Part shown: in pieces, positions 2,197 to 64,000 of the stretch
Layout: the number at the start of each line of letters is the position of its first letter
Position numbering within the stretch: position 1 is the stretch's first letter
Source of the DNA: Candidatus Omnitrophota bacterium
Lineage (GTDB): Bacteria > Omnitrophota > Gorgyraeia > DTHP01
DNA: 64,000 nt
NCBI GenBank assembly: GCA_023819145.1
Contig: JAMWCW010000005.1
Coordinates: forward strand, 22,566 to 86,565
Direction: 5' to 3'
Program-made: the position numbers and the translations under genes
Notes under the pieces: generated by a model
Seen by the model: only the letters and a program-made list of their open reading frames with translations
The model's database searches: none
Told to the model about the DNA's origin: nothing

Positions 2197-3762
2197 ATGG
2201 AGAAAAAAAATCTTATTGGTCTTTTATTTATTCTACTCATTATCTTTCTTTATCCTTTTTACCTCCAGATTTTTGCTCCACAACCCTCTCCCAAGATTAC
2301 TAAAACCGCAGTAATAGATTTCCCCCAAGAAGTAAGTATTCAAGTAGTTGATAAAGAAGAAGTTAAGAACTATGATACGGTTCATGATACGGTTTTACAA
2401 AATAAACATCTGCGTATAGAGTGCACGAACAAGGGGGCAGGGATTAACATGATACAGTTGATACAGTTTAATAATCAACAAGAGGGTAACCCCATAAGTA
2501 TTTATAAAAACGATACTTATAGTAAAAAGATCCTTTATTTTACCCACCCTTTTCTAAATTACGACTTAAATAAAGCGGTCTATGCTTATAACGAATCTAA
2601 AAATGGAGTAAGCTATTATTTATTAGTTCCCGGACAATGCTTAATAGAAAAGAAGATTATTTTAGAGGAAAATACCCATCTGCTAAAGTTTAATTTACGC
2701 CTCCAAAACTTAGACCAGAAACCCTTACCGGTGAATGTAGGTTTTGTAGGAGGCCAGAATCTTAAAACCAAAGAACCTTGGGAAGAGCGTTACTGGGAAA
2801 TCGCTTTTGCTCAAGAAGGGAAAATCAAACATGAGTTTTTCCGCCAAATTCGCACCTCTAAAATTTATTTGGCTCCCCTTCCTTGGTTGGCCTTAAAGAG
2901 TAAATATTTTTCTCAAATCATTGTTCCCTCTTCAGGAACCACTTCGTTTACTGCCCAGCGTCTTGCCGATAATGGCTTAGAGGTTTCAGTGCAAGTTCCT
3001 TTAACAATTCTTCAACCTGGAGAAACTAAGGAAGAAAATTTTTTGTTTTATTTCGGACCACTTGACACGCGTGTCCTGCATCAATATAATAGTGAATGGA
3101 AAGAAATTGTATATTACGGGATGTTTGATGGCATTGCTAAATTTATCCTGCGCATCCTCCGAGGAGGTTTTATGCTTTTAAAGAACTATGGCTTAGCAAT
3201 CATCTTTCTTTCACTTTTGGTTAACCTTTTTCTTTTCCCTTTCACCTGGAAGAGCATGAAGTCGATGCAAGCCCTCCAGAGCCTTCAGCCTCAGATAGAG
3301 CGCTTGCGTAAAGAATATGCACAAGACCCCCAAAGATTAAATAAAGAAATATTAGGGATATACCAAAAACATAAAGTAAATCCTTTTGGAGGATGTCTTC
3401 CTTTATTTCTGCAAATGCCTATCTTCGTTTCTCTTTATCAGGTGCTTTCGCGTGCGGTTGAACTGAAAGGAGCAAGATTCCTCTGGATAAAAGACCTTTC
3501 GCTTCCTGATAATTTGTTTTCTTTTCCCCAGAAAGTCCTTTTTCTCGACTCCTTTAATTTGCTACCCTTGATTATGGTTTTACTTATGTATCTTCAACAA
3601 AAAAAGACACAGGTTTATTCTCCTTCCCAAAAGCAGACTACTTGGTTTATGCCTTTCTTTTTTGGGTTTATTTTTTATAATTTTCCTTCAGGGTTAGTGC
3701 TTTATTGGTTAGTGAGCACCTTATTAAATTTAATTTTACAAGGGAAGGTGCATAAAGGTTAA
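2197..3762 (+). CDS. yidC: Membrane protein insertase YidC/Oxa1 family
   Basis: 521 aa; N-terminal TM, large periplasmic domain, C-terminal 5-TM 60-kDa inner membrane protein domain (...GGCLPLFLQMPIFVSLYQVL...); conserved rpmH-yidD-yidC synteny. Confidence 0.9.
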   Translation: MEKKNLIGLLFILLIIFLYPFYLQIFAPQPSPKITKTAVIDFPQEVSIQVVDKEEVKNYDTVHDTVLQNKHLRIECTNKGAGINMIQLIQFNNQQEGNPISIYKNDTYSKKILYFTHPFLNYDLNKAVYAYNESKNGVSYYLLVPGQCLIEKKIILEENTHLLKFNLRLQNLDQKPLPVNVGFVGGQNLKTKEPWEERYWEIAFAQEGKIKHEFFRQIRTSKIYLAPLPWLALKSKYFSQIIVPSSGTTSFTAQRLADNGLEVSVQVPLTILQPGETKEENFLFYFGPLDTRVLHQYNSEWKEIVYYGMFDGIAKFILRILRGGFMLLKNYGLAIIFLSLLVNLFLFPFTWKSMKSMQALQSLQPQIERLRKEYAQDPQRLNKEILGIYQKHKVNPFGGCLPLFLQMPIFVSLYQVLSRAVELKGARFLWIKDLSLPDNLFSFPQKVLFLDSFNLLPLIMVLLMYLQQKKTQVYSPSQKQTTWFMPFFFGFIFYNFPSGLVLYWLVSTLLNLILQGKVHKG

Positions 3763-3800
3763 AGCGCTATATTTAGCTTTAAGTTTTCACGTGAAAACTG

Positions 3801-4604
3801 ATGGGTAAAATAATTGCAATCTGTAATCAAAAAGGAGGAGTGGGAAAGACTACTACCTGCATTAATCTTTCTGCTTTTTTAGCCCATGCAGGTAAAAAAA
3901 TATTGGTCATAGATTTAGACCCTCAAGGAAATGCCACCAGTGGTTTGGGAGTAGAGAAGAATAAACTAAATTCTTCTATTTATCAGGCACTCTTAGGAGA
4001 AGTGAAACTAGAGGAGATTATCCAGCCAACAACCATAGAGAATCTAAAATTAGTTCCTGCGCGCTTAGAGCTCATTGGCGCTGAAGTAGAGTTAAGCAGA
4101 ATGGATAAAGGGCAGTTTGTTTTGCAAAAATTATTAGAGGAGGCACAAAGGAATTTCGACTTTCTTTTTATTGACCTTCCTCCCTCTCTGGGTCTACTTA
4201 CGGTGAATGGACTAACTGCTGCCCATTCTGCGCTCATTCCTGTGCAATGTGAATACTATGCATTGGAAGGGTTAAGTCAACTATTGGTAACCTTGGAGAG
4301 GATAAAACAGGCGTTTAACCCGACATTAGCCATTGAAGGGATTTTGCTTACCATGGCAGACTATCGCACTAATCTTTCGCAGGAGGTAATTGCTGAGGCC
4401 CGTCAGCATTTTGGGAAGGAAGTTTATGCCACTGTAATTCCCCGCAGTATTCGCTTGGGTGAAGCACCCGGTTTTGGGAAACCTGTTTTTCTCTATGCTC
4501 CGGAGTGCGTGGGGGCTCTGAAGTATGCAGAGTTAGCCCAAGAATTTCTTTTAAGAAATACGAATATAAACTTAGACCTTAATTTAACCTCATCAATTTC
4601 TTAA
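3801..4604 (+). CDS. parA: Chromosome partitioning ATPase ParA/Soj
   Basis: Deviant Walker A KGGVGKTT, ParA/MinD-family length (267 aa), followed by parB. Confidence 0.9.
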   Translation: MGKIIAICNQKGGVGKTTTCINLSAFLAHAGKKILVIDLDPQGNATSGLGVEKNKLNSSIYQALLGEVKLEEIIQPTTIENLKLVPARLELIGAEVELSRMDKGQFVLQKLLEEAQRNFDFLFIDLPPSLGLLTVNGLTAAHSALIPVQCEYYALEGLSQLLVTLERIKQAFNPTLAIEGILLTMADYRTNLSQEVIAEARQHFGKEVYATVIPRSIRLGEAPGFGKPVFLYAPECVGALKYAELAQEFLLRNTNINLDLNLTSSIS

Positions 4605-6028: not shown

Positions 6029-6904
6029 ATGACAAAAAGCATGACCGGCTTTAGTAAAGCAACAGGAAAAATCAAAGGGGGTGTTTTGAGTGTAGAGATA
6101 AAATCTTTCAACCATCGTTTTTTTGAAGTTACTACCCGGCTCCCTCAAGAACTATTAATTTACGAAGAAGAAATAAAACGTCGGCTTAAAGAAAGAATCC
6201 GTCGTGGTTCAATCAATGTTCTCTTTATTTATTTTTCTCCTCAAGGGAATATAAAGTCTGTGAATTTGGATGAGAGGGTGGTTAAACAATATACTCAAAT
6301 AGCCAAATTGCTCTCTAAAAAAATAGGTTTGAGAGGAGAGTGGGGAATAAGCGACTTCTTGAATCTGCCCGGGGTTTTGGTATGCGAAGAAAAGCACATA
6401 GATTTGAGTAAGGAGTGGGGAGAGTGTAGAAAAGTTTTAGATAAAGCGATAGACAAACTGCTTGTTTCTAAAGAAAAAGAAGGCAGGGTGTTACTTAAAG
6501 ATGTTTTGGCGAATATACAATCTGCAGAAAATTCTTTAAAGAAGATTCAAATGCGCACAAAGCACAATGTAGGTGAATTTAAAAGAAAGATACAATTAAA
6601 GTGCCAGGCATTAGCCGGTTTAACCCTTACCAAAGAAAAACTAATGGAAGAAACAAGTCTTTTCTTACGGAATACCGATATTTCTGAAGAGATAGTGCGT
6701 GTTCGAGGACACCTCGTGGAAATGCGGAATTTATTAAAGAAAGAAGAAGAAGTGGGAAGGAAGCTTGATTTTATGGCCCAAGAGGCTTTTCGCGAAGCTA
6801 ATACCATCGGTGCGAAAGCCAACGATTATCTTATTTCCCATGAGGTGGTTTTGATAAAGTCGTATGTGGAAAAGATTCGCGAACAGGTGCAGAATTTAGA
6901 ATGA
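6029..6904 (+). CDS. yicC: YicC-family protein (UPF0701, stress-induced endoribonuclease family)
   Basis: N-terminal MTGF..SVE.KS.NHRF motif and C-terminal DUF1732-like region; conserved yicC-remA-gmk-rpoZ neighbourhood. Confidence 0.85.
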   Translation: MTKSMTGFSKATGKIKGGVLSVEIKSFNHRFFEVTTRLPQELLIYEEEIKRRLKERIRRGSINVLFIYFSPQGNIKSVNLDERVVKQYTQIAKLLSKKIGLRGEWGISDFLNLPGVLVCEEKHIDLSKEWGECRKVLDKAIDKLLVSKEKEGRVLLKDVLANIQSAENSLKKIQMRTKHNVGEFKRKIQLKCQALAGLTLTKEKLMEETSLFLRNTDISEEIVRVRGHLVEMRNLLKKEEEVGRKLDFMAQEAFREANTIGAKANDYLISHEVVLIKSYVEKIREQVQNLE

Positions 6905-9160: not shown

Positions 9161-9234
9161 GGCGCGGTAGCCAAGTGGCAAGGCAGTGGTCTGCAAAACC
9201 ATTATTCGTCGGTTCAATTCCGACCCGCGCCTCG
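9161..9234 (+). tRNA. tRNA-Cys (GCA)
   Basis: Cloverleaf by eye: acceptor GGCGCGG/CCGCGCC, anticodon loop CUGCAAA, T-arm GGTTCAATTCC, discriminator U. Confidence 0.8.
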
Positions 9235-9260
9235 ATTTTAGTGAGAGTGATTTTTAGTTC

Positions 9261-9344
9261 GGGCGAGTGGAGGAATGGTATACTCGACGGACTTAAAATC
9301 CGTTGGCCGTTAAGGCCGTAAGGGTTCGAATCCCTTCTCGCCCA
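9261..9344 (+). tRNA. tRNA-Leu (TAA), long variable arm
   Basis: Acceptor GGGCGAG/CTCGCCC, anticodon loop CTTAAAA, long extra arm, T-arm GGTTCGAATCC. Confidence 0.8.
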
Positions 9345-9377
9345 TAGACAATTTGGCAAGGGAACAATTTATTTTAT

Positions 9378-9455
9378 GGGCGCTTAGCTCAGTTGGTTTA
9401 GAGTGCTTCCTTGACATGGAAGAGGTCACAGGTTCAAGTCCTGTAGCGCCCACCA
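9378..9455 (+). tRNA. tRNA-Val (GAC), CCA encoded
   Basis: Acceptor GGGCGCT/AGCGCCC, D-arm AGCTCAGTTGGTTAGAGC-like, anticodon loop TTGACAT, T-arm GGTTCAAGTCC, terminal CCA. Confidence 0.8.
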
Positions 9456-27964: not shown

Positions 27965-28039
27965 GGGCGATTAGCTCAGCCTGGGAAGAGCACTTGACTT
28001 ACATTCAAGGGGTCAGAGGTTCAAATCCTCTATCGCCCA
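27965..28039 (+). tRNA. tRNA-Val (TAC)
   Basis: Acceptor GGGCGAT/ATCGCCC, D-arm GCTCAGCCTGGGAAGAGC, anticodon loop CTTACAT, T-arm GGTTCAAATCC. Confidence 0.8.
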
Positions 28040-28158
28040 AATTGGCGCATGGCGGTTAGGGTATAACTCGTATAAATTGTTATTTCTTTTTAGAGAAAAT
28101 TTTCGTAAAATATACAAACTCTCTTCACACTATAAACGGTAATTTGTAAACTGATTTC

Positions 28159-28237
28159 GGGCCCGTGGTGCAGCCTGGTTCAGCACGTCAGATTGTCGAT
28201 CTGAAGATCGCGAGTTCAAATCTCGTCGGGCCCGCCA
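28159..28237 (+). tRNA. tRNA-Asp (GTC), CCA encoded
   Basis: Acceptor GGGCCCG/CGGGCCC, anticodon loop TTGTCGA, T-arm AGTTCAAATCT, discriminator G, CCA. Confidence 0.8.
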
Positions 28238-48596: not shown

Positions 48597-49718
48597 ATGT
48601 TTGCTCTTGATACTGAAAAGAAGTTGAAAATACTGGGGCAAGAAGCACGTTTTGAATCTTGCGGATTACCAAGAAATTTTGGACATAGATGGCACGACAG
48701 GTTCATCTACCAGGCAGTAGGAGAAGGTGGTTTTTGTGTTAATCTTTTTAAAATTTTACAGACTAATAGCTGTAGAAATAATTGTTTCTACTGCGCTAAT
48801 AGAAGAGATAGAGACTTTGCAAGATTCTCCTTTACGCCTCAAGAGTTGGCAAAAATATTTATCGAATACTATCGCCAGAAAAAGATTCAAGGACTTTTTC
48901 TTTCATCTGCCTTAGAAAATGATGCAGATAATACTCAGGGGAAGATGCTTGAGACAATAAAGATTTTAAGGAAAACTTATGGTTATCAAGGATACATTCA
49001 TTTTAAAATTCTTCCCGGCGTAGACAAAAAACTCATTTTTGAAGCAGCAAAATTAAGTAATAGGATTTCGCTTAACCTCGAGGCGCCGGGTGATGTTTAT
49101 CTTAATAAAATTGCCAAAGAAAAAAATATGCATAAGATTCTTATCCCCACCTTAGAAAATATGGTAGAAGCAGTAAAGTTTTATCCTTTAAAATCAGGAA
49201 TCACTACCCAGTTAATTATCGGAAGCGGTAGTGAGACGGATAAAGAAATCATTTTCTTTGCTGATGAAATTTATAATAGGTATAAAATAAAGCGCATTTA
49301 CTACAGCGGTTTTGCCCCTGTAAAAGGTACTCCTTTGGAATACCATCCCCATTGTTCTGACCTCCGCGAATATCGTATTTATCAGGCAGATTTTCTTTTG
49401 AGGAAATATGGTTTTAAGAAGGAAGAACTTGTGTTTGATGAGCAGGGTAATCTTTTGCCAAATATAGACCCAAAATTTGCCTGGGCAGAAAAACATCCTG
49501 AAAGATTTCCCGTAGAGATAAATAGAGCAAGTTTTGAAGAACTTTTGCGTGTTCCGGGCATTGGGAGATGTTCGGCAGAGAAAATTATAAAATTCCGCAG
49601 GATTAAAAAGATTGCAAATTTAGAAGACCTTAAAAAATTGGTTCCTCTATTGAGACGCACTCAAAATTTTGTTACATTAAACGGGAAATTCCTTCCTTTA
49701 AAAGAAAAAAGAAGATGA
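48597..49718 (+). CDS. Putative DNA modification/repair radical SAM protein (TIGR03916-like) with C-terminal helix-hairpin-helix
   Basis: Radical SAM CxxxCxxC (CRNNCFYCANR), TIM-barrel-length core, C-terminal HhH (ELLRVPGIGRCSAEKIIKFR); 373 aa. Confidence 0.75.
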   Translation: MFALDTEKKLKILGQEARFESCGLPRNFGHRWHDRFIYQAVGEGGFCVNLFKILQTNSCRNNCFYCANRRDRDFARFSFTPQELAKIFIEYYRQKKIQGLFLSSALENDADNTQGKMLETIKILRKTYGYQGYIHFKILPGVDKKLIFEAAKLSNRISLNLEAPGDVYLNKIAKEKNMHKILIPTLENMVEAVKFYPLKSGITTQLIIGSGSETDKEIIFFADEIYNRYKIKRIYYSGFAPVKGTPLEYHPHCSDLREYRIYQADFLLRKYGFKKEELVFDEQGNLLPNIDPKFAWAEKHPERFPVEINRASFEELLRVPGIGRCSAEKIIKFRRIKKIANLEDLKKLVPLLRRTQNFVTLNGKFLPLKEKRR

Positions 49719-55961: not shown

Positions 55962-56630
55962 ATGATTCCCTTACATGATGAAAATCCTACAGAAAGGTTC
56001 TCTTTTGTAACCATTGTTTTGGTTATTGTTAATTCCATTGTTTTTCTCTATGAGCTTTCCTTAGGTAGTTCATTAGAGATAACTATCCGTCGTTATACCC
56101 TTATTCCATATAATTTTATAAACTATTTTGATTTTTCTCAATTACGTACGCTTTTTAGTTCACTTTTTTTGCATGGGAGTTTATTGCATCTTTTGGGAAA
56201 CATGCTTTACCTTTGGATTTTTGGCAACAATATTGAGGACGTTTTGGGGCACTTTAAATTTATCTTGTTCTATTTTCTCTGCGGAATTTCCGCTTCCCTT
56301 GCACACATTCTTACCAATCCCCATTCAACTATTCCTACTTTAGGTGCAAGTGGAGCGGTTTCCGGGGTATTAGGGGCATATTTTATTCTTTTCCCTCAAG
56401 CAAGGGTAGTTACCATAATTCCTATTTTCTACTTTATCAGAATAGTTAAAATTCCTGCTTTTTTCTTTCTTGGATTCTGGATTGCGGTTCAATTTTTATC
56501 AGGGATAATTAGTTCGGGAATGGACAGCGATTTAGGTGGAGGGGTTGCTTGGTTTGCTCATCTTGGTGGTTTTTTTGCAGGAGTGTTACTCTTACCTCTA
56601 TTCTACCAGCGAGGCAGGAGAAGATATTAG
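55962..56630 (+). CDS. Rhomboid-family intramembrane serine protease
   Basis: Six TMs, the GASGAVSG catalytic Ser motif and a downstream AHLGG His; 222 aa. Confidence 0.88.
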   Translation: MIPLHDENPTERFSFVTIVLVIVNSIVFLYELSLGSSLEITIRRYTLIPYNFINYFDFSQLRTLFSSLFLHGSLLHLLGNMLYLWIFGNNIEDVLGHFKFILFYFLCGISASLAHILTNPHSTIPTLGASGAVSGVLGAYFILFPQARVVTIIPIFYFIRIVKIPAFFFLGFWIAVQFLSGIISSGMDSDLGGGVAWFAHLGGFFAGVLLLPLFYQRGRRRY

Positions 56631-59600
56631 ATTTAAGGAGGATTTAATTATCTTTGTGTATATTTTTTGTCTGAGATTATAGCGTGTTGTGAGCAAATTT
56701 AAAAAGACATCCTTCTGATAAAGTGATAGTTTAGCATAAGGAATGTTCTGTATCTCGGATAGAGCCTTTCTCAAATAGAAATATTCTGGAGCAACCAAAT
56801 CAATAACTTCGCTTAGATTCCGTAAACTCATTATTTTTTTGTATAATTTTTTTAACTCACTATTTTCAAAAAACTGCAATAGTTTTCTTATTTCCCTTTC
56901 TTCCGCAATACTGATTTTGTATCTTTTGATTATTTTTTTGATTAATTTTTTTTGTTGATTAAAGGAAAGTTCTTCCCAAGGGGGGAAACCGAGTTTTTTG
57001 GGCCCCATAAGATTTATAAGCGCGGTTAAGGCTTTAATGAATTTTATCTCTTTATCCTGAGGAAGATAGATTCTGTATTTTTTGTTTTTATATAGCTTTA
57101 ACAAAATTCGCGCCCTACTAAGTTCATTGAGAGTTTCCCAGTTATACTCACGCAAATTTTCGGGCAGTATTTCCTTATGGGTAAGTTTTTCTAACAGATT
57201 TTTTGCAGGGAATTTTTCCCAATCCATTTCAGTAAGAAAAGATAAAAATATTCTTAACAATTCTCGAGGGCCCAACGTATGATTGATTTCCAAATTATAT
57301 TCCAAGATATTTTCGATAATTTGTTCTCTCTCTAAGGGTTTATTTTTATTAGACAGTTCTTTTTTCAATAACTTAATTCTATCCCGCATCCCTAAGAATT
57401 CAAGAGAAGAGAATGATGGGCTTTCTCCATAATTTCCTGATAGCCATGCAAGCATTGGTCCTATTATCCATGACCAGATAAATACTGGCCACCCATAGAA
57501 GATAAGCGAAGGGTCGGCTAACCCTGAAAAAACAGGAATTACAGCAAAAGTTAAGGAGAGAATGGGAGTAGCGATTAGACGTAAATATACTTCAAAAAGG
57601 GAAGTTTTTTTGCCAAGGATTTTTTCTACAAAAGGAGTGGTAAACCAAGGGATAGAGGTGTTAGGGTTGAAAATAATAAACCAGATTTTAGAGATGACAA
57701 TAAAAGGAATGTGCACTACATTCATAAGGAGGATAGAACTAGAATAGATTGTTTCTATAAATCCTCTTTTTAATATGTCTAAAACCGTTCTTTGAGAGGG
57801 GACAATTTCTAAAAGAAGGATGAGGGGAAATAAAAAACCCGCCAGGGATGGAAAAGATTGGAAGAGAAACAAAAAGACCCAGTTTGCGGAAGTAATATTC
57901 TCCATCCAGTTTAATAAAAAGGGTGCATAGAGCCAGGCAAAGAAGCCAATGGTCGATATAATCACTATGCTTACTAAGCGATTAATCAGACCTGGATATA
58001 GAGAAAAAATTGACTTCATAATATAAATAATTATACGGCGGAGAACATATAGACTAATAATAAAGGCACTAAATTTCCCCCAATTTCCGGGGAAAGCGTT
58101 ATTTCCTAATTTATATATGTAGAAAGAAATAAGCAATAATAATAGAAAAATCAGTAATTTCTCTTTTTTCTTCTCGAATAAAATTAGACGTTCAAGAAGG
58201 GGGACAACGGCTTTGGGTAAAAAAATTAGAATTATTAAAACAGACCAGAAGATATGCCAAGCAATAGCAGGAGATTTTATGGTGAGTATCCCGGGGATAA
58301 CCAGAGAAATCGTTCCTATAAGCATTAACCATATACAGTAATAAAGAGGGGAGAACGCTAAGCGTTTTATTAGCCAGATACGCAATATTTTTGCTAAATA
58401 GGAGGGGGCTTCGTTTTTTTCTTTAAGATATTTAATTCTTACATAAATATGGCCTAACCAAAATTTAAATTCAGAAAAGTTTATTTTTAGAAGGGAAAAA
58501 ACCATTCTGAAAAAATCAATAAAGACTCCGAAATAGGTTTCGTATTCTAATAGAAGAAGATCCCCACCTAACCATCCCTCAAGCCGTTTTAGAAAAGAGA
58601 TGTAGTTAGGGGGGATATTTTCGATAAGATTTTTACTTTTTAGGTAAGGATAAGAATACACAAGAGCAGTTTTAAGATGCATTGCTTCCCAGTGGTCGTG
58701 GGTTCTTGCTAATGGCGGTATAGCTTCTTTAAACAGTATATTTTTGACATAAGCATCGACCAATTTTGTCATCTTGCCATAAGCGGAAGATTCTCCATAT
58801 AAAGAGAAAATTGCTCTTGCGCTGAAACGATACATCTGTTGTGCCCAGGAATGGAAACGGGCAAATGTGGACTGGCCCTGATTGGCAAAACAGATTTCCG
58901 GTTGAAGCATCAAATAGGGGTCTTCTTCATGGAGATTATGTATGAGTTTGCTGTTAAGATAAGAGAGCGTTTGCGGTTGGAATTCGTCATCTGCATCAGT
59001 TTGGTTTATGATTTTTATGCCACAGTCTGCGGGGATAAAATTTCCATTTTCGTCTCTAAGTATTTGCGCATCTTTAAATCTTAAATGTATTCCGTAGGGC
59101 AACTTCTCTCCATTTTTTAAGACGATTTCTCCATCTTTATTGAAAATATAATCCTCCTTTTTCGCTAAGAGTTCCTCTTTAATTAAATTTCCATTTTTTA
59201 TTAAAACATCCTTTTCTTTGACAACTACATCATCCGTTGATTCTTTTTGCCAAAGATAGACATCTCCTACAGTATAAGAACCCGAGGGATAAATTAAATA
59301 ATCACCATCCAAAGGATTAATCACGAGAGCATTTAATTTTTCATCGAAGTAGACATAGTCTTTTAGAGAAAGGATCTTTCTTATCCTTATATTATTTTCC
59401 TTGTCTTTATACCAACCGCCTGCTTCCGCCAAAAGGGTGGTTTTTATCAGAGCATAGTTTGTATAATCAAGAGCAATTTCTTCTTTATGCAGTTCTTTTA
59501 TTTTATCCTTTTTTGCTATCAACAAAGGTTTCGCTATACCTTTCTCAAATACGTCGCCTATATACCAAATATTACCTTCGTTGTCTAAATAAAAACCGTC

Positions 59601-61418
59601 CTTTTCATTAACCACAAATCCCGAATCTGTAATTTTTATTTTATTAATCCAAGAATTATGAATATAGATATATTTATCTTTAGGGTTCGCTATAACTTTT
59701 TCGTTTGTTTCTGTGAGACGGACAAAGAAATCCTCTTCTTTTTCCCTATACATAAGATAGACCAAATCATTTTCTCTGTGCAAAAAAGTTTCCTTGATAT
59801 TTTCCTTTGGTTCTATTAAATTGTCCTCAAAAAAAAGATTTCCTTCTTTGTCCAGCCTAAATCCTCGTCCTTCCTGGACTAAATAGCCACCGAAGACCCT
59901 TTCTTTAAGTTTTATTAGGGTGTCTTCTATAAAATATTCTTTTTCTATACCCTTTTTCCCAATATGGAGGTTATAAATGTTTCCTATGATACCATTTTTC
60001 ATAAATTCATCTGCTTGGGAGAAAGAGATAATTTTCTCTTTTACAAGATTTTTTATGCTTAACCAAGATATATTAAGCAGACGGTCAAAAGCTAACCTGC
60101 GGTAATCAACCCCTTTTATTAATTTTTTTTCAATGGTGATATCTTTTTTGACAAAGTGGAATTTTTTATCCTTAAGCTTGTAGAGGTCGTAAGAAAAATC
60201 TATACGATATTCTCCCGCCCTTGCCCAAATTTTGCCATTGGAGGCATCAATAAGATTAGAAACAGAATCAAGAATTAATTTTTTACCTTCGTTTGTATAT
60301 ACAATCTGCACAAATATAAAAGCATAATTTTTACCTTCAAAATTTTTATCTCTGGATTCTAAAAATTCTATTCTGCCTTCCGAATCTATCTTCCATTGCT
60401 TGGCATTAAACAAAAGTTCTCCCTGAGGAGAAAAGATTGCTCCCTGAGAGATAAGGTAGTATTTTTCTGAATTTGTTTTATCAATAAGATAACTTTCAGA
60501 CAAAAATTTTATATCTTCATATATTTCTTCTTGGGGAGGGTATTTCTTAAGATTTAATTTCTCTCTCAGAAAGAAATTTCCTTTATAGTGAAGGAAGTAT
60601 TGAAATTCATCTTTTTTACCTAAAGAATAGAAAGGGATATGTTCTTGAATTTCCCCATCAAGACAGACAATTTTCTGACGCCTTGCATCAAAACTGTGCG
60701 AAACATAGTTCAAGGGATGCCAAACCCCTGTGGTTAAAATTTGATAATCACTCATATAACCGCCGGGCTTTTTCAAGAACATTGGGTTGTAAGCTTCTTG
60801 GTTGCGTGCAAAGAGGAACACTTTACTGCCAAGTTCTTTCTTTGCGTCCAGAATCAAACGAATTTCTTCTTCTACAAGAGATTCTTCCTCGGTGTCACTA
60901 TGGTAAATAAAAGCAAGATGGCTCTTGGGGTTGAGGTTGTTCCGTAAGGCACGAAGTCCTTGGGTTATACAGGCATAGACCTCAGCGTTACTTTTTGCTT
61001 TTTGAGGTATATAGAGGGCAGAGAAGAAATTTGCGGGAATTATCTCTGTTTCTTGAATAAATGGGTCATCTTTAAGATAGAGGGGTTTTCTAAAAAAATA
61101 GAGAAATGTTGAGACCAGTAGATAAGGGATTTCGGAGAATATCTCTTTAAATAATATACTTACTAAGGAAATCGCTAATAATGATGAGCTAAACCAGTGG
61201 AATACGATAAAAGCAAATATAGAAGTAACAAAGAGGGTTAAGAATTCACAGGGCAATAAAAAACAAGTTCTAATGAGGAGGAGACGTTTTAGTCTCTTTT
61301 TCTCAAGGGGTGTTTTTACTTTGATAAATTTAAAGAGCGTAGAGCAGGTTTCCCCTAAAATTATTATAAATTTCCAGGCAATAATTAAAAAAAGTATAAT
61401 AGATATTGCCAAAATCAT
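56598..61418 (-). CDS. Giant (1606-aa) polytopic membrane protein of unknown function with internal beta-rich D-x-E/D-G-N repeats
   Basis: Three N-terminal TMs, ~900 aa extracytoplasmic region with repeated ..D.EGN/KDG.. blocks (aa ~330-800), a ~10-TM region (aa ~1010-1330) and a K-rich ~270-aa C-terminal tail; start 2 nt after the stop of the upstream radical SAM gene. Confidence 0.55.
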   Translation of the reverse strand: MILAISIILFLIIAWKFIIILGETCSTLFKFIKVKTPLEKKRLKRLLLIRTCFLLPCEFLTLFVTSIFAFIVFHWFSSSLLAISLVSILFKEIFSEIPYLLVSTFLYFFRKPLYLKDDPFIQETEIIPANFFSALYIPQKAKSNAEVYACITQGLRALRNNLNPKSHLAFIYHSDTEEESLVEEEIRLILDAKKELGSKVFLFARNQEAYNPMFLKKPGGYMSDYQILTTGVWHPLNYVSHSFDARRQKIVCLDGEIQEHIPFYSLGKKDEFQYFLHYKGNFFLREKLNLKKYPPQEEIYEDIKFLSESYLIDKTNSEKYYLISQGAIFSPQGELLFNAKQWKIDSEGRIEFLESRDKNFEGKNYAFIFVQIVYTNEGKKLILDSVSNLIDASNGKIWARAGEYRIDFSYDLYKLKDKKFHFVKKDITIEKKLIKGVDYRRLAFDRLLNISWLSIKNLVKEKIISFSQADEFMKNGIIGNIYNLHIGKKGIEKEYFIEDTLIKLKERVFGGYLVQEGRGFRLDKEGNLFFEDNLIEPKENIKETFLHRENDLVYLMYREKEEDFFVRLTETNEKVIANPKDKYIYIHNSWINKIKITDSGFVVNEKDGFYLDNEGNIWYIGDVFEKGIAKPLLIAKKDKIKELHKEEIALDYTNYALIKTTLLAEAGGWYKDKENNIRIRKILSLKDYVYFDEKLNALVINPLDGDYLIYPSGSYTVGDVYLWQKESTDDVVVKEKDVLIKNGNLIKEELLAKKEDYIFNKDGEIVLKNGEKLPYGIHLRFKDAQILRDENGNFIPADCGIKIINQTDADDEFQPQTLSYLNSKLIHNLHEEDPYLMLQPEICFANQGQSTFARFHSWAQQMYRFSARAIFSLYGESSAYGKMTKLVDAYVKNILFKEAIPPLARTHDHWEAMHLKTALVYSYPYLKSKNLIENIPPNYISFLKRLEGWLGGDLLLLEYETYFGVFIDFFRMVFSLLKINFSEFKFWLGHIYVRIKYLKEKNEAPSYLAKILRIWLIKRLAFSPLYYCIWLMLIGTISLVIPGILTIKSPAIAWHIFWSVLIILIFLPKAVVPLLERLILFEKKKEKLLIFLLLLLISFYIYKLGNNAFPGNWGKFSAFIISLYVLRRIIIYIMKSIFSLYPGLINRLVSIVIISTIGFFAWLYAPFLLNWMENITSANWVFLFLFQSFPSLAGFLFPLILLLEIVPSQRTVLDILKRGFIETIYSSSILLMNVVHIPFIVISKIWFIIFNPNTSIPWFTTPFVEKILGKKTSLFEVYLRLIATPILSLTFAVIPVFSGLADPSLIFYGWPVFIWSWIIGPMLAWLSGNYGESPSFSSLEFLGMRDRIKLLKKELSNKNKPLEREQIIENILEYNLEINHTLGPRELLRIFLSFLTEMDWEKFPAKNLLEKLTHKEILPENLREYNWETLNELSRARILLKLYKNKKYRIYLPQDKEIKFIKALTALINLMGPKKLGFPPWEELSFNQQKKLIKKIIKRYKISIAEEREIRKLLQFFENSELKKLYKKIMSLRNLSEVIDLVAPEYFYLRKALSEIQNIPYAKLSLYQKDVFLNLLTTRYNLRQKIYTKIIKSSLNLISSPASLVE

Positions 61419-61419
61419 C

Positions 61420-62310
61420 TTAGTCCAGTCGTTTTATCCCTAATGAAAGAGCAATCTCGCGTGCTTCTAAATATTCATCCCTCGTTATTGCTCTGCCTAT
61501 ATGAGGGAAGTGATGTGCTTCTCCACAAGGAGTATATTGGGACATAATGTTTACATAACTCTCAGAAGATATATTTCCAGCAATAAATTTCATAATCTCT
61601 TTTGTTTCTTTCGTTTGATTAGGCATTACCAGGTGTCTAATAAGTAAACCTCGCTGGGCAACACCATTTTCTATAATTAAATTCCCCACTTGGCCATGCA
61701 TTTTTTTAAGAATTTTTTTTAAATTTTCAAAATAATCACTACAGGAGGATAATTCTTGGGATATCTGAGAAGAATAAAATTTTGTATCGGGCATATAGAT
61801 GTCAATGATGCCTTCTAAAATATCGATAACCTCTTCCGATTCGTACCCTCCACAGTTATAAACCAAAGGGATTGTGAGTCCTTCTTCTATGGCAAAAGTT
61901 AAGGCTTCTAAAATCTGTGGAACAAAATGTGTTGGAGTGACCAAATTTATATTATGGCATTCAAGTTTTTGTAAGAAGAGCATAATTTTAGCTAATTCTT
62001 GAGAAGAGATTTCTTTTCCCTCGCCTAAGTGACTTATCTCATAATTCTGGCAGAAGACACACTTAAGGTTGCAGTGTGTAAAAAATATTGTTCCTGAACC
62101 GTGTTCACCTACTAGACATTTTTCTTCACCAAAATGGGGGAAATAAGAAGCGACAGTTGCTTTTTCTCCACCTCCACAGAATCCCTTTTCTCCTTCGGCA
62201 CGTTTAGCTCGACATTTGCGAGGACAAAGTTGACAGGGGGATAACCTTTCTTTTAAATATTCTAATTTCTTCGTTATTTTGTCTCTATTCTTGAGATATA
62301 GAGGGAGCAT
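61420..62310 (-). CDS. PflX-like (COG1313) radical SAM enzyme, pyruvate formate-lyase-activase-related
   Basis: N-terminal CQLCPRKC...GFCG motif, GSGTIFFTHCNLKCVFCQNYEIS radical SAM cluster motif, 296 aa. Confidence 0.7.
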   Translation of the reverse strand: MLPLYLKNRDKITKKLEYLKERLSPCQLCPRKCRAKRAEGEKGFCGGGEKATVASYFPHFGEEKCLVGEHGSGTIFFTHCNLKCVFCQNYEISHLGEGKEISSQELAKIMLFLQKLECHNINLVTPTHFVPQILEALTFAIEEGLTIPLVYNCGGYESEEVIDILEGIIDIYMPDTKFYSSQISQELSSCSDYFENLKKILKKMHGQVGNLIIENGVAQRGLLIRHLVMPNQTKETKEIMKFIAGNISSESYVNIMSQYTPCGEAHHFPHIGRAITRDEYLEAREIALSLGIKRLD

Positions 62311-64000
62311 AAGAAATTTTGAGCTTTTTAGGCTTTAAGTTTTGTTTGAGAAAATTTTTAAAAGACAGAGAAAGAGCAGACTCTAACTTTTGAATAATGA
62401 GAGCCTCCGGAGTGCATTCATAAAAAATACTTTTGAGATTTAAGAAGTTCACCGTATCTCTTTTTATAATATCTAAATACACGAGAATTTCTTTGGGGGT
62501 AACATTTTTATGATATTTATTTATAAATTCATGGATATATTCTACTTTCCGCGCGTAGGATAAAAATACCACCGGTGGTTGTAGAAGAAACATTGTTTTT
62601 TCTGCAACTTCTTTTAATTTTATATAATTTATTTCTTCCTTTGCTATCTTTAGGTGGCTTAACATCTCTTCCAAAGTTTTAGTATATTCTTCTATAGAAT
62701 AAACGCGTAAAGGTTTTTCTCCCATTTCTATACTGTATATTTCACCTGTAAGAAATAAAAGTTCATGAATTAAATAATCATCCATTATTTCTTCCAAATA
62801 TTTTTTGAACGTATTTACTAAAGAAAATATTTTTCCTACAGTTTTTGCTTCTCCTCCTGAGTGGAGGATTGGCCATGCATAATCTATTGCTTTCTGGATG
62901 GGGATATCTTTATTAAAAATTTCGTGAAAGCCATTTTTAATTTCTTGAGAAATCGTAAATAGTTGGGGGATAATTTCTCTTCTGGTGCTACCACGGTTTA
63001 TTTCTTCGCTAAAGTAGTTTAGTATTGAATAATCCTCAAAATCAACTTTTCCCTTTGAAAATATTTTTTTATATAAATCCTCTAACCATCCATAATCTTC
63101 GATATATATTTTTAAGGTATCTTCCACTCCCAATCCTTCCAGAACTTTCCATGTAAGACTCGATGATTTATGAGGAGGAAGTTCTATTTTATAAATAGTT
63201 CTTGCTCTTTCTATAATATCTTTTTGTATTTTTTTTCTATCGTAAAAAGGTTGTGGATGGCATGGGTGTTTAGAGGTATTCTTATTTAATGAAAGAATTA
63301 TTTTTTGTCTTTCGTTAAACGTCTCTTCTTCACCAGAAAAAATATGTCGAAGGAGTTCGGGGATAATTATCCTTCTTGTTTCTTTTAAAATTTCTTCTAA
63401 TTTGGGGTAAATTTCTTGGAGGGTGGTTTTATTCTTAGAGTATTTTTGGAAGAAGATGTTGATAAAACCGTTCTGAAATTTAGCATATCTTTCTATCGCT
63501 TTTTTGAAACCGGATTTTACTTCCTCCGTAGATTTGGATGTTCGGAAGTTAGTAAATTCTTTTACCTCTTCCTCCGAAATTGGTTCATTTAGATTCTCCC
63601 AAAAAATCCTAAAGACATACCTTCGTAAATCTTCCTCTGTATTCGCCATGCGAATCTCTTCGTCAGGGCTGTTTGTACTTAATGCGCCATTTTCCACCAG
63701 AAGTTTTATTTGCCAAGGGCGCATACGGAGGAGGGAATAATTTAGTATAAATTTAAGCAGGGAGAAATCGATATATTTAGAATGTTCTTTATAAAAGCAT
63801 TTTACTAAAAATGTTGCCTTGTCCATCCATAAACGGAATTTTTTTCCGTAAGGAGGAATCTGTCTAAAGAGATGGGTTAACAAACCATATATCTCTAAAT
63901 CAGACGGATTAGTCTTAGAGAGTAGTTTATCACTTTTGAACATAGCATAGAGGTATATAAAATTCCCCATTTCTTTCAGGCTATAGCCTCTTTCTTTCAT
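62285..64000 (-). CDS. Hypothetical soluble protein (>=571 aa; ATG lies exactly at the window edge, true start may be further upstream)
   Basis: Long ORF with no recognisable motif; overlaps the downstream radical SAM gene by 26 nt, suggesting an operon. Confidence 0.5.
   Translation of the reverse strand: MKERGYSLKEMGNFIYLYAMFKSDKLLSKTNPSDLEIYGLLTHLFRQIPPYGKKFRLWMDKATFLVKCFYKEHSKYIDFSLLKFILNYSLLRMRPWQIKLLVENGALSTNSPDEEIRMANTEEDLRRYVFRIFWENLNEPISEEEVKEFTNFRTSKSTEEVKSGFKKAIERYAKFQNGFINIFFQKYSKNKTTLQEIYPKLEEILKETRRIIIPELLRHIFSGEEETFNERQKIILSLNKNTSKHPCHPQPFYDRKKIQKDIIERARTIYKIELPPHKSSSLTWKVLEGLGVEDTLKIYIEDYGWLEDLYKKIFSKGKVDFEDYSILNYFSEEINRGSTRREIIPQLFTISQEIKNGFHEIFNKDIPIQKAIDYAWPILHSGGEAKTVGKIFSLVNTFKKYLEEIMDDYLIHELLFLTGEIYSIEMGEKPLRVYSIEEYTKTLEEMLSHLKIAKEEINYIKLKEVAEKTMFLLQPPVVFLSYARKVEYIHEFINKYHKNVTPKEILVYLDIIKRDTVNFLNLKSIFYECTPEALIIQKLESALSLSFKNFLKQNLKPKKLKISYAPSISQE

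What the first reader, a model, noticed from the sequence alone, without database searches (positions are those of the whole stretch)
56598..64000. Minus-strand operon: unknown 571-aa protein, PflX-like radical SAM enzyme, and a 1606-aa multi-TM protein with beta-repeat ectodomain
Three tightly packed genes: a 26-nt overlap, then a 2-nt gap. The COG1313/PflX-type radical SAM enzyme (extra N-terminal CxxCPxxC...GFCG motif plus CNLKCVFCQN) has no known substrate in most organisms. Here it is immediately followed by an exceptionally large membrane protein. That protein has three N-terminal TMs, a ~900-aa extracytoplasmic region full of ..D-x-E/D-G-N.. beta-repeat units (nt ~59000-60450), a ~10-TM block (nt ~57430-58390) and a long lysine-rich cytoplasmic tail. 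No glycyl-radical motif is evident in either neighbour, so the activase target is unclear. The trio may constitute an undescribed membrane-associated system, such as a surface polymer synthase or transporter needing radical chemistry.
Basis: partly seen in the sequence, partly recalled or inferred. Interest (0 to 1): 0.65.

Follow-up and report, generated by a model that had tools for sequence, protein, structure and literature searches.

The report
Giant glucan-synthase-like enzyme with partner
The 1606-residue membrane protein is a very divergent relative of bacterial beta-glucan synthases (OpgH/Cgs) with a 550-residue domain of unrecognised fold inserted in its catalytic domain; it always sits next to a ~2200-residue partner, whereas the radical SAM gene is a lineage-specific add-on.

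Summary

1. **Upstream gene.** The "571-aa protein" is the C-terminal quarter of a ~2200-aa gene cut by the window edge. Complete relatives start with a signal peptide.
2. **Membrane protein.** The 1606-aa protein has no direct Pfam, NCBIfam or PDB hit. [quoted passage not shown]
3. **Catalytic residues.** The UDP-binding Asp, the DxD motif, the catalytic Asp and the motif Trp are kept. The Arg of the "RW" motif is lost.
4. **The "ectodomain".** It is a ~550-aa beta-rich insertion inside the cytoplasmic catalytic domain. It models confidently (pLDDT 85) and has no significant PDB fold match.
5. **Co-occurrence.** Partner and synthase are adjacent in all 8 distinct loci found. The radical SAM gene lies between them in only 3, all in one subclade. 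Its family is widespread (at least 562 species genomes, bacteria and archaea) with other neighbours.

**Verdict:** a new variant of a known kind, a rare Omnitrophota glucan-synthase-like module, not a radical-SAM-dependent system.

The parts
62285..64000 (-). Last 571 codons of a ~2200-aa partner gene that is cut by the window end. This stretch lies within the conserved C-terminal region of the partner family.
   Evidence: It is 52% identical to residues 1657-2208 of L001's 2208-aa protein. It is also homologous to L008's 2273-aa protein and to the L004/L006 second ORFs. L001's 2208-aa protein in turn matches L096's >=2052-aa ORF. It has no Pfam hit. Complete relatives start with a signal peptide.
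61420..62310 (-). Radical SAM enzyme of 296 aa. It carries CxxxCxxC at C80/C84/C87 (nt 62050-62073) and an N-terminal Cys cluster (C26/C29/C33/C45). It is a lineage-specific insertion between the two giant genes.
   Evidence: Pfam PF04055 matches at E 8e-10. All NCBIfam hits fall far below their cut-offs. It is 77% identical to the L001 copy. It is present in the window, L001 and L093 only. The family is widespread with unrelated neighbours.
56598..61418 (-). OpgH/Cgs-superfamily membrane glycosyltransferase of 1606 aa with a large insert.
61128..61418 (-). Three N-terminal TM helices (residues 1-97). The loop at residues 21-45 is strongly basic.
   Evidence: Hydropathy scan. The loop has 8 K/R against 2 D/E. 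Residues 58-247 align to the TM plus GT N-half of the compact family (hhalign prob 99.1, E 4e-19).
60678..61061 (-). N-terminal half of the GT-A domain (residues 120-247). It contains IYHSDT (D175, nt 60894-60896), the UDP-coordinating Asp, and KKPGGY (216-221).
   Evidence: D175 corresponds to Cgs D527 through the A7-Cgs alignment and PMC10901819. The low-confidence model shows a beta-alpha-beta pattern here.
59025..60677 (-). Insert of ~550 aa (residues 248-798) within the GT-A domain. It is beta-rich, has a short helical linker, and carries recurring (F/Y)x(L/I)Dx(E/D)GN hairpin motifs. It is predicted to be cytoplasmic.
   Evidence: It corresponds to ~43 aa in the compact family and to nothing in OpgH. 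AF2 gives pLDDT 85.0 and pTM 0.81. No Foldseek match reaches E<=1e-3 in PDB or BFVD. Motif enrichment is shown.
58419..59024 (-). C-terminal half of the GT-A domain plus interface region (residues 799-1000). Motifs:
- TDADDE (D808/D810, nt 58989-58997)
- LQPEI
- YGKMTK
- ARTHDHWEA (D908, nt 58695-58700)
- KRLEGWLGGD (W949, nt 58572-58574; the R of 'RW' is replaced by G)
   Evidence: hhalign A1 against A7 for residues 831-1078 gives prob 99.6, E 1e-23. The DxD region scores E 1e-5. BLASTP against E. coli OpgH residues 378-496 gives E 9e-4. Motif table. Cgs residue roles come from PMC10901819.
57438..58334 (-). C-terminal TM block of about 8-9 helices (residues 1029-1327).
   Evidence: Hydropathy scan. 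Its start aligns to the TM region of the compact family, which in turn aligns to the OpgH and Cgs TM regions.
56601..57431 (-). Basic C-terminal tail (residues 1330-1606) that matches no known family.
   Evidence: Composition. Partly conserved in the family. Helical character was not modelled. No Pfam hit.

Best explanation
**Shown.** The 1606-aa protein is a highly divergent member of the OpgH / cyclic-glucan-synthase (GT2-clan, GT84-like) family of inner-membrane glycosyltransferases.
- Its layout is three TM helices, a cytoplasmic GT-A catalytic domain, a block of ~8 TM helices and a cytoplasmic tail.
- A ~550-aa beta-rich domain of unrecognised fold is inserted in the catalytic domain. It sits between the UDP-binding Asp (D175) and the DxD motif (D808/D810).
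- The gene is always directly preceded by a ~2200-aa alpha-helix-type, K/E-rich partner gene. Where the N-terminus is available, the partner has a signal peptide.
- The radical SAM gene between them exists only in one subclade.

**Inferred.**
- The enzyme uses a UDP-sugar, most likely UDP-glucose. Both characterised relatives make beta-1,2-glucan, so it probably polymerises a beta-glucan at the cytoplasmic face.
- The TM bundle either translocates the chain, as assumed for OpgH from established knowledge (not read here), or holds it under the membrane, as in Cgs.
- The cytoplasmic insert and the tail probably bind or regulate the chain, or mediate oligomerisation.
- The exported giant partner receives, organises or anchors the product in the envelope.
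- The radical SAM enzyme is a broadly conserved anaerobe enzyme that became co-transcribed in this subclade. It is probably not an obligatory component.
For: **Homology chain**
- A profile of residues 795-1330 finds 40 proteins among 1.84 billion representatives, including compact ~620-aa members.
- The compact family (A7) matches E. coli OpgH (hhalign prob 98.9, E 3e-17, 477 columns).
- A7 also hits MdoH/GT2-annotated proteins.
- The window family against A7: residues 831-1078 give E 1e-23, residues 58-247 give E 4e-19, and the DxD region gives E 1e-5. All three are colinear.
- Direct BLASTP against OpgH gives E 9e-4 in the correct region.

**Catalytic residues**
- D175, D808, D908 and W949 are invariant in the family.
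- They map to Cgs D527, D624, D739 and W774, whose roles are given in PMC10901819.

**Insert and topology**
- There is no TM segment between residues 98 and 1028, and the loop at residues 21-45 is basic.
- The insert model has pLDDT 85.

**Gene neighbourhood**
- Partner and GT are adjacent in 8 of 8 distinct loci, down to ~30% GT identity.
- Signal peptides are present on the L001, L008 and L004/L006 partners.
- Pfam OEP (TolC-like) hits occur in the L004/L006 partners at E 7e-11 and 2e-11.
- The radical SAM gene is in 3 of 8 loci. Its family occurs in at least 562 genomes with no conserved neighbour.
Against: - There is no direct Pfam, NCBIfam or PDB hit for the window protein or its family profile. 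Homology rests on an intermediate family.
- The Arg of the RW motif (Cgs R773, BcsA R382) is G/E/S in the whole clade. Cgs R776 is also replaced in every member shown. Catalysis could therefore be altered or lost.
- The AF2 model of the GT part is unusable (pLDDT 46.6), so the GT-A fold is not confirmed structurally.
- Donor sugar, linkage and export are extrapolated from OpgH and Cgs. Cgs itself does not export.
- The partner's role is unknown. Its N-terminal ~950 aa show no significant similarity to the OEP-bearing ORF of L004/L006 (hhalign E 0.02). TolC comparisons were negative.
- The radical SAM gene is kept with overlapping or abutting reading frames in three genomes whose GT proteins have diverged to ~63% identity. 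A subclade-specific function is therefore not excluded.
Confidence: 0.6

Rival explanations
1. The three genes form one radical-SAM-dependent membrane system. The radical SAM enzyme activates or modifies the giant membrane protein, its partner or the polymer, and the beta-rich region is a surface-exposed ectodomain.
For: - The reading frames overlap or abut in the window, L001 and L093.
- The arrangement is retained while the GT diverged to 63% identity and the partner to 52%.
- The radical SAM copy is 77% identical between the window and L001.
Against: - The radical SAM gene is absent from 5 of 8 loci that keep partner and GT adjacent.
- Its family is near-ubiquitous in anaerobes, including archaea. 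None of the 80 best loci carries either giant, and there is no conserved neighbour.
- The closest Omnitrophota orthologue (65% identity, L009) lies in a different context.
- No glycyl-radical motif is present.
- The beta-rich region lies inside a cytoplasmic GT domain.
Confidence: 0.1
2. Cgs-like mode. The enzyme builds a glucan or oligosaccharide that stays on the cytoplasmic side, in a chamber formed by the insert and the C-terminal tail. The chain may start from a protein-linked primer. Its own TM bundle does not export it.
For: - The best solved relative, Cgs, has a compact TM domain without an export channel. It grows the chain into a cytoplasmic chamber built from extra domains (PMC10901819).
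- The window protein also carries large extra cytoplasmic parts: the 550-aa insert and the 277-aa tail.
Against: - No GH94 phosphorylase or cyclase domain is detected.
- It has about 11 TM helices, against 6 in Cgs.
- The obligatory neighbour has a signal peptide, which points to an extracytoplasmic step.
Confidence: 0.2
3. Pseudo-enzyme or scaffold. The GT domain has lost processive transferase activity because the R of the RW motif is lost. The two giant proteins form a structural envelope assembly.
For: - RW is replaced by GW, EW or SW in the whole clade and in several supergiant relatives.
- The large insertion may disrupt the GT-A fold.
- The AF2 model of the GT C-half is of low confidence.
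Against: - D175, D808/D810, QPE, H907-D908 and W949 are invariant across sequences only 25-36% identical. This argues for selection on catalysis.
- An invariant Arg (R905, in ARTHD) appears near the catalytic Asp in almost all the RW-less sequences. It could compensate, but this is inference.
Confidence: 0.1

Closest known systems
OpgH (MdoH), the osmoregulated periplasmic glucan glucosyltransferase of Proteobacteria (GT2)
   Same: - The order is the same: N-terminal TM helices, then a cytoplasmic GT-A domain, then C-terminal TM helices.
- The motifs are colinear: SD, K-x-G, DxD, QP, (S/T)HD-x-x-EA and PPN...KR...W..G(D/N)L.
- The compact relatives match OpgH at E 3e-17 over 477 columns.
   Different: - No Pfam GT2 model detects the window protein.
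- It has a ~550-aa insertion between K-x-G and DxD.
- The R of RW is lost.
- It has about three more TM helices than OpgH and a 277-aa tail.
- Its partner is a ~2200-aa protein rather than OpgG.
- It comes from Omnitrophota.
[quoted passage not shown]
   Same: - It is the best solved relative of the family (A7 profile E 2e-28).
- The equivalent catalytic residues are D527/D624/D739/W774 in Cgs and D175/D808/D908/W949 here.
- Both are giant multi-domain membrane enzymes with extra cytoplasmic domains around the GT.
   Different: - Cgs adds its extra domains (NTD, cyclase, GH94) before and after the GT-TM core, not inside the GT-A fold.
- No cyclase or phosphorylase domain is found here.
- Cgs has 6 TM helices and keeps RW.
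Plant cellulose synthase CesA insertions (P-CR, CSR) in a GT2 domain. This is recalled knowledge and was not tested.
   Same: A processive membrane GT2 carries a large insertion between the first conserved Asp and the DxD motif, which is the position of P-CR.
   Different: P-CR is a small helical oligomerisation domain. Here the insertion is 550 aa, beta-rich and unrelated in sequence. The analogy is positional only.
Radical SAM enzymes related to glycyl-radical activases and the AmmeMemoRadiSam enzyme
   Same: It has the CxxxCxxC motif and an N-terminal CxxCxxxC...C motif. Short matches to the NrdG2, PflA and AmmeMemoRadiSam models cover the cluster-binding region.
   Different: All NCBIfam scores are far below cut-off (26-28 bits against 131-220). 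No PDB sequence relative was found. No glycyl-radical partner lies nearby.

Membership tests
OpgH/Cgs-type membrane glucan synthase (GT2 clan / GT84) | Significant sequence similarity to family members or models | tested here: met
   Direct tests are weak or negative: no Pfam, NCBIfam or PDB-profile hit, and BLASTP against OpgH gives E 9e-4. The test is met through an intermediate family. A1 against A7 gives E 1e-23 and 4e-19. A7 against OpgH gives E 3e-17, and A7 against Cgs gives E 2e-28.
OpgH/Cgs-type membrane glucan synthase (GT2 clan / GT84) | UDP-coordinating Asp residues (first D and DxD; Cgs D527/D624, BcsA D179/D246) | tested here: met
   D175 (IYHSDT) and D808/D810 (TDADDE) are invariant in the 8-member family. 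They map to the Cgs residues through and PMC10901819.
OpgH/Cgs-type membrane glucan synthase (GT2 clan / GT84) | Catalytic base Asp (Cgs D739, BcsA D343) | tested here: met
   H907-D908 in ARTHDHWEA is invariant. It aligns with SHD of OpgH and Cgs.
OpgH/Cgs-type membrane glucan synthase (GT2 clan / GT84) | (Q/R)xxRW motif with Arg and Trp | tested here: not met
   Trp W949 is kept, but the Arg is replaced by G/E (KRLEGW, KRQMEW), and by S, G or E in the more distant RW-less relatives. The compact relatives, OpgH and Cgs keep RW.
OpgH/Cgs-type membrane glucan synthase (GT2 clan / GT84) | Cytoplasmic GT-A domain bracketed by TM helices | tested here: met
   There are 3 TM helices before and about 8-9 after, with no TM segment inside residues 98-1028. 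The basic loop at residues 21-45 fits a GT-inside topology. The order is colinear with A7 and OpgH.
OpgH/Cgs-type membrane glucan synthase (GT2 clan / GT84) | GT-A fold confirmed by structure | tested here: inconclusive
   The AF2 model of residues 110-1309 has pLDDT 46.6, and the GT C-half is below 35. Only non-significant local GT-A matches were found (GtrB prob 0.54, E 0.6).
OpgH/Cgs-type membrane glucan synthase (GT2 clan / GT84) | UDP-glucose-dependent beta-1,2-glucan synthesis | not testable with these tools
   This needs biochemistry.
Glycyl-radical-enzyme activase / COG1313 'PflX' radical SAM | Radical SAM core with a CxxxCxxC motif | tested here: met
   C80/C84/C87 are present, and PF04055 matches at E 8e-10.
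Glycyl-radical-enzyme activase / COG1313 'PflX' radical SAM | Score above the curated cut-off of an activase model (PflA, NrdG, PFLE_PFLC) or assignment to COG1313 | tested here: not met
   The best NCBIfam scores are 28.1 bits (NrdG2, cut-off 131) and 25.9 bits (AmmeMemoSam_rS, cut-off 220). No COG library was available, so COG1313 itself was not tested.
Glycyl-radical-enzyme activase / COG1313 'PflX' radical SAM | Cognate glycyl-radical enzyme (RVxG motif) encoded nearby | tested here: not met
   No R[VIT]xG[FYWS] motif is present in the GT, in the 571-aa fragment or in the L001 2208-aa partner.
Conserved three-gene system (partner + radical SAM + GT) | All three genes co-occur across genomes | tested here: not met
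   Partner and GT are adjacent in 8 of 8 loci. The radical SAM gene is present in 3 of 8: the window, L001 and L093. None of the 80 best radical SAM loci carries a giant.
TolC/OEP outer-membrane channel (for the partner protein) | Match to Pfam OEP above the cut-off | tested here: inconclusive
   The test is met in the distant L004/L006 first ORFs (42.7 and 44.7 bits, cut-off 22). It is not met in the L001, L008 or L096 partners or in the window fragment. hhalign against E. coli TolC was negative.

The most novel reading that the evidence does not exclude
The module would be an undescribed envelope machine of Omnitrophota with two components.
- The first is an OpgH/Cgs-like synthase. It has an altered active site (RW lost, with a possibly compensating Arg next to the catalytic Asp) and a new 550-aa cytoplasmic beta-domain that controls chain handling or oligomerisation.
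- The second is a ~2200-aa exported partner that is TolC-like at its N-terminus in some lineages. The synthase would feed it, and it would carry or organise a glucan across the envelope.
- In one subclade a co-translated radical SAM enzyme would add a radical-chemistry step to the donor sugar, the polymer or one of the proteins.
Probability: 0.2. Interest if true: 0.75.

Novelty: new variant of a known kind. Interest (0 to 1): 0.5.

Why it matters
- **A missed branch of a studied superfamily.** Membrane-embedded processive glycosyltransferases (cellulose, chitin, hyaluronan, OPG and cyclic-glucan synthases) are well studied. This branch is invisible to Pfam and NCBIfam.
- **An unusual insertion.** The GT-A fold tolerates a 550-aa insertion here. 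The inserted domain models confidently and has no significant Foldseek match in the PDB.
- **A changed catalytic motif.** The supposedly essential Arg of the RW motif is absent while all the other catalytic residues are conserved.
- **Annotation of giant genes.** The same GT module is embedded in 4000-7800-aa proteins. Recognising it could annotate part of the 'giant gene' dark matter of Omnitrophota, which are uncultured ultra-small bacteria thought to depend on hosts.
- **A testable pairing.** The strict pairing with a ~2200-aa exported protein suggests that this glucan-type polymer has a dedicated envelope partner, and that can be tested.
- **A corrected lead.** The result removes a tempting but unsupported link between an orphan radical SAM family and this membrane protein.

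Tried and rejected
- **Direct family scans.** Pfam and NCBIfam scans of the three proteins, of an insert-deleted chimera and of the GT C-half gave no GT hit.
- **PDB profile search.** A profile of the full family against PDB sequences returned only spurious GFP-like hits.
- **Homologue search with the 571-aa fragment.** It returned nothing, because the candidate list was saturated by K/E-rich words. That used one capped search.
- **Exact look-up of the window protein's contig.** It is not on record.
- **AF2 of residues 110-1309.** The model was too poor for the GT part, and the Foldseek search with it was meaningless.
- **Partner proteins.** Pfam, PDB profiles (only designed helical repeats matched) and self-BLAST for repeats were all negative.
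- **Partner N-terminal halves.** The link between L001/L008 and L004/L006 is not significant. TolC hhalign was negative.
- **Internal duplication of insert modules.** Not significant.
- **Literature.** A search for COG1313/PflX returned nothing relevant. The two Omnitrophota giant-gene papers do not mention this module.
- **Supergiant relatives.** They show no BLAST similarity to the partner and no Pfam domains.
- **Frameshift artefact.** This was rejected for the 1606-aa ORF.
- **Glycyl-radical substrate in the neighbours.** This was rejected.

Full report
**1. Observation**

ORF listing confirms three minus-strand ORFs: 56598-61418 (1606 aa), 61420-62310 (296 aa) and 62285-64000 (571 codons ending at the window edge). 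The upstream ORF overlaps the radical SAM gene by 26 nt. One nucleotide separates the radical SAM stop codon from the giant ORF's ATG.

The window comes from an Omnitrophota MAG. An identical protein is NCBI 'NC818_03930, Candidatus Omnitrophica bacterium'.

The giant ORF is not a frameshift artefact. Colinear full-length homologues of 1448-1631 aa occur in independent ENA, Logan, JGI and NCBI assemblies.

**2. The first gene is truncated**

The 571 aa align at 52% identity to residues 1657-2208 of a 2208-aa protein in the closest relative, L001. They also align to the C-terminus of a 2273-aa protein in L008. The 'ATG' at the window end is therefore an internal Met.

Complete relatives begin with signal-peptide-like N-termini and have no other hydrophobic segment. 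These proteins are rich in K, E, L and I. They have no Pfam or PDB relatives and no internal repeats detectable by BLAST.

**3. Which genes travel together**

I found eight distinct loci:

| Locus | GT identity to window | Gene order |
|---|---|---|
| Window | 100% | partner (cut) - rSAM - GT |
| L001 (same arrangement in L002, L003, L095) | 63% | 2208 aa - rSAM - GT |
| L093 | 64% | >=1419 aa (cut) - rSAM - GT |
| L008 | 52% | 2273 aa - GT |
| L004 / L005 | 36% | 1364 + 1374 aa - GT |
| L006 | 35% | 1321 + 1352 aa - GT |
| L094 | 35% | >=548 aa (cut) - GT |
| L096 | ~30% | >=2052 aa - GT |

The conserved part of the partner is its C-terminal ~1000-1250 aa. L001 against the L004 second ORF gives E 5e-84, and L096 against L001 gives E 3e-49. 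Partner and GT are therefore adjacent in 8 of 8 loci. The radical SAM gene is present in 3 of 8, all in the subclade with at least 63% GT identity.

**4. The radical SAM gene**

It has CxxxCxxC (C80/C84/C87) and an N-terminal four-Cys motif. Pfam Radical_SAM matches. Every NCBIfam activase model scores far below its cut-off, and no PDB sequence relative was found.

A scan of one genome per GTDB species found at least 562 loci. The best 80 are 48-65% identical and come from many phyla: Omnitrophota, Desulfobacterota, Chloroflexota, Bacillota, Acidobacteriota, and the archaeal Archaeoglobales, Methanomethylicia and Aenigmatarchaeota.

- None of those 80 loci encodes a relative of either giant.
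- There is no cross-phylum conserved neighbour. The largest neighbour cluster covers 17 of 80 loci and is a response regulator found mostly in Deltaproteobacteria-type MAGs.
- The closest Omnitrophota orthologue (L009, 65%) has different neighbours.
- Neither giant contains a glycyl-radical motif.

Against complete dismissal, the gene keeps overlapping or abutting frames in three genomes. It is also more conserved (77%) than its neighbours (63% and 52%).

**5. What the 1606-aa protein is**

Direct searches fail: Pfam and NCBIfam and a family profile against PDB. By eye its motifs resembled OpgH, and BLASTP against E. coli OpgH gave E 9e-4 over residues 845-955 against 378-496.

An exhaustive HMM search with residues 795-1330 found only 40 proteins among 1.84 billion representatives. 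These include compact ~620-aa proteins.

The compact family (alignment A7) is unmistakably OpgH/Cgs-like:
- hhalign against OpgH gives prob 98.9, E 3e-17, over 477 columns spanning TM-GT-TM.
- The same profile hits MdoH and Pfam-GT2-annotated proteins.

The window family matches A7 colinearly in three pieces:

| Window residues | A7 residues | E-value |
|---|---|---|
| 58-247 | 18-200 | 4e-19 |
| 799-859 | 244-302 | 1e-5 |
| 831-1078 | 274-493 | 1e-23 |

About 550 residues (248-798) therefore replace ~43 residues of A7. A7's roughly 60-residue segment at this site (about residues 183-243, which includes those 43) has no counterpart in OpgH.

**6. Catalytic residues**

I used the Cgs roles from PMC10901819 and the alignments.

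| Cgs residue | Role | Window residue |
|---|---|---|
| D527 | coordinates UDP | D175 (IYHSDT) |
| D624 | coordinates UDP | D808 (TDADDE) |
| D739 | catalytic base | D908 (THDHWEA) |
| W774 | Trp of the RW motif | W949 |

All four are invariant in the family. Cgs R773, the Arg of the RW motif, is G/E in the eight-member family (S, G or E in the more distant RW-less relatives). R776 is also replaced in every member shown.

Almost all the RW-less sequences, the window clade included, carry an Arg two residues before the HD, as in ARTHDHWEA. Most of the compact RW-keeping members lack it. A compensating role for this Arg is my inference only.

**7. Topology and the 'ectodomain'**

There is no hydrophobic segment between residues 98 and 1028. 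The region is bracketed by GT-A motifs of a domain that is cytoplasmic in Cgs and, from established knowledge that was not read here, in OpgH. The loop at residues 21-45 has 8 K/R, which fits an orientation of TM1 out-to-in followed by TM2-TM3 returning to the cytoplasm.

The beta-rich region is therefore a cytoplasmic insertion, not an ectodomain.

- Modelled alone with 11 sequences, it gives pLDDT 85.0 and pTM 0.81. The model shows two or three beta-hairpin-rich modules and a short helical linker.
- The D-x-(E/D)-G-N motif is enriched, with 6 occurrences against 0.84 expected. Larger repeat units are not significant.

**8. The partner**

In L004 and L006 the first ORF has a signal peptide and Pfam OEP (TolC-like) matches above the cut-off. 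The L001, L008 and L096 partners show no such match, and their N-terminal halves are not significantly similar to it.

The apparent split into two ORFs in L004 and L006 falls inside runs of 11 and 10 A. In both loci the second frame is -1 and opens 27-36 nt before the first stop. One extra A would fuse them into one ~2700-aa protein. This suggests that the partner is a single exported polypeptide in all lineages. It could be a homopolymer assembly error, phase variation or programmed slippage, and I could not tell which.

**9. Mechanism**

Shown:
- membership of the OpgH/Cgs superfamily
- conserved catalytic Asp residues
- the cytoplasmic insert
- obligatory adjacency to a ~2200-aa partner whose complete relatives start with a signal peptide
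- non-obligatory presence of the radical SAM gene

Inferred:
- The enzyme polymerises a beta-glucan from a UDP-sugar at the inner face of the membrane. By analogy the linkage would be beta-1,2 and the donor UDP-glucose.
- The chain is exported through the TM bundle (OpgH-like) or held beneath it (Cgs-like).
- The insert and tail serve chain binding, regulation or oligomerisation.
- The partner acts on or with the product outside the cytoplasm.

One weak contextual hint supports glucose as the substrate. A compact family member lies next to a cluster encoding glucokinase, PGI, G6PD, 6PGD and a Glucosamine_iso-family protein (6-phosphogluconolactonase type).

**10. Novelty and score**

No Pfam or NCBIfam model covers the family. 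NCBI calls the window-clade proteins hypothetical, and JGI calls two compact members 'membrane glycosyltransferase'. The two Omnitrophota giant-gene papers do not describe it.

It is a new variant of a known kind. The new features are the large intradomain insertion, the altered RW motif and the giant partner. The radical-SAM angle that drove the original interest is not supported. Interest is 0.5.

Noticed in passing
L004:5746-5760 and L006:5499-5512: In both distant loci the partner is split into two ORFs at a poly-A run (11 and 10 A). The second ORF is in the -1 frame and opens 27-36 nt before the first ORF's stop. One extra A would fuse them into a ~2700-aa protein like the single genes of L001, L008 and L096. 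This could be programmed or transcriptional slippage, phase variation or a homopolymer assembly error.
   Followed up: partly
Proteins P0014 (6091 aa, GT module at 3524-4091), P0019 (7817 aa, 6258-6444), P0027 (5515 aa), P0016 (4224 aa), P0036 (4150 aa): The same divergent OpgH/Cgs-like GT module is embedded in the middle of supergiant proteins of 4000-7800 aa. P0016, the only one of these that was scanned, has no Pfam domain, and none shows BLAST similarity to the partner protein. This may annotate part of the 'giant gene' dark matter.
   Followed up: partly
Alignment A7 (P0028, P0029, P0031, P0034, P0035, P0037, P0043, P0045); L090:8001-9872: A compact ~620-aa OpgH/Cgs-like glycosyltransferase family is missed by Pfam at E<=0.01. 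One member lies divergently next to a cluster encoding glucokinase, PGI, 6PGD, G6PD and a Glucosamine_iso-family (6-phosphogluconolactonase-type) protein.
   Followed up: partly
window 58572-58706 (residues 905-949 of the GT): There is a correlated motif change across the family. In almost all sequences that have lost the Arg of 'RW' (GW, EW or SW), an Arg sits two residues before the catalytic HD (A-R-T/C/S-HD). Most RW-keeping compact members have L/K-S-HD instead.
   Followed up: partly
window 56598-56630: The 3' end of the giant GT gene overlaps the 3' end of the convergent rhomboid-family gene (55962-56630, + strand) by 33 nt. The rhomboid / AP-endonuclease-2 / D-Tyr-tRNA deacylase / beta-CASP block downstream is syntenic in L001 and L008. 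The rhomboid gene is also kept in L004, and the deacylase gene in L004 and L006.
   Followed up: no
window 48597-49718: By synteny with L001 (a 385-aa gene with Pfam Radical_SAM plus HHH_3, next to a DEAD-box helicase and an RNA cyclase), this ORF is probably a second, unrelated radical SAM enzyme. It was not scanned directly.
   Followed up: no
window 9161-9452 and 27965-28234: Two small tRNA clusters, with three and two tRNA genes, were found by Rfam.
   Followed up: no
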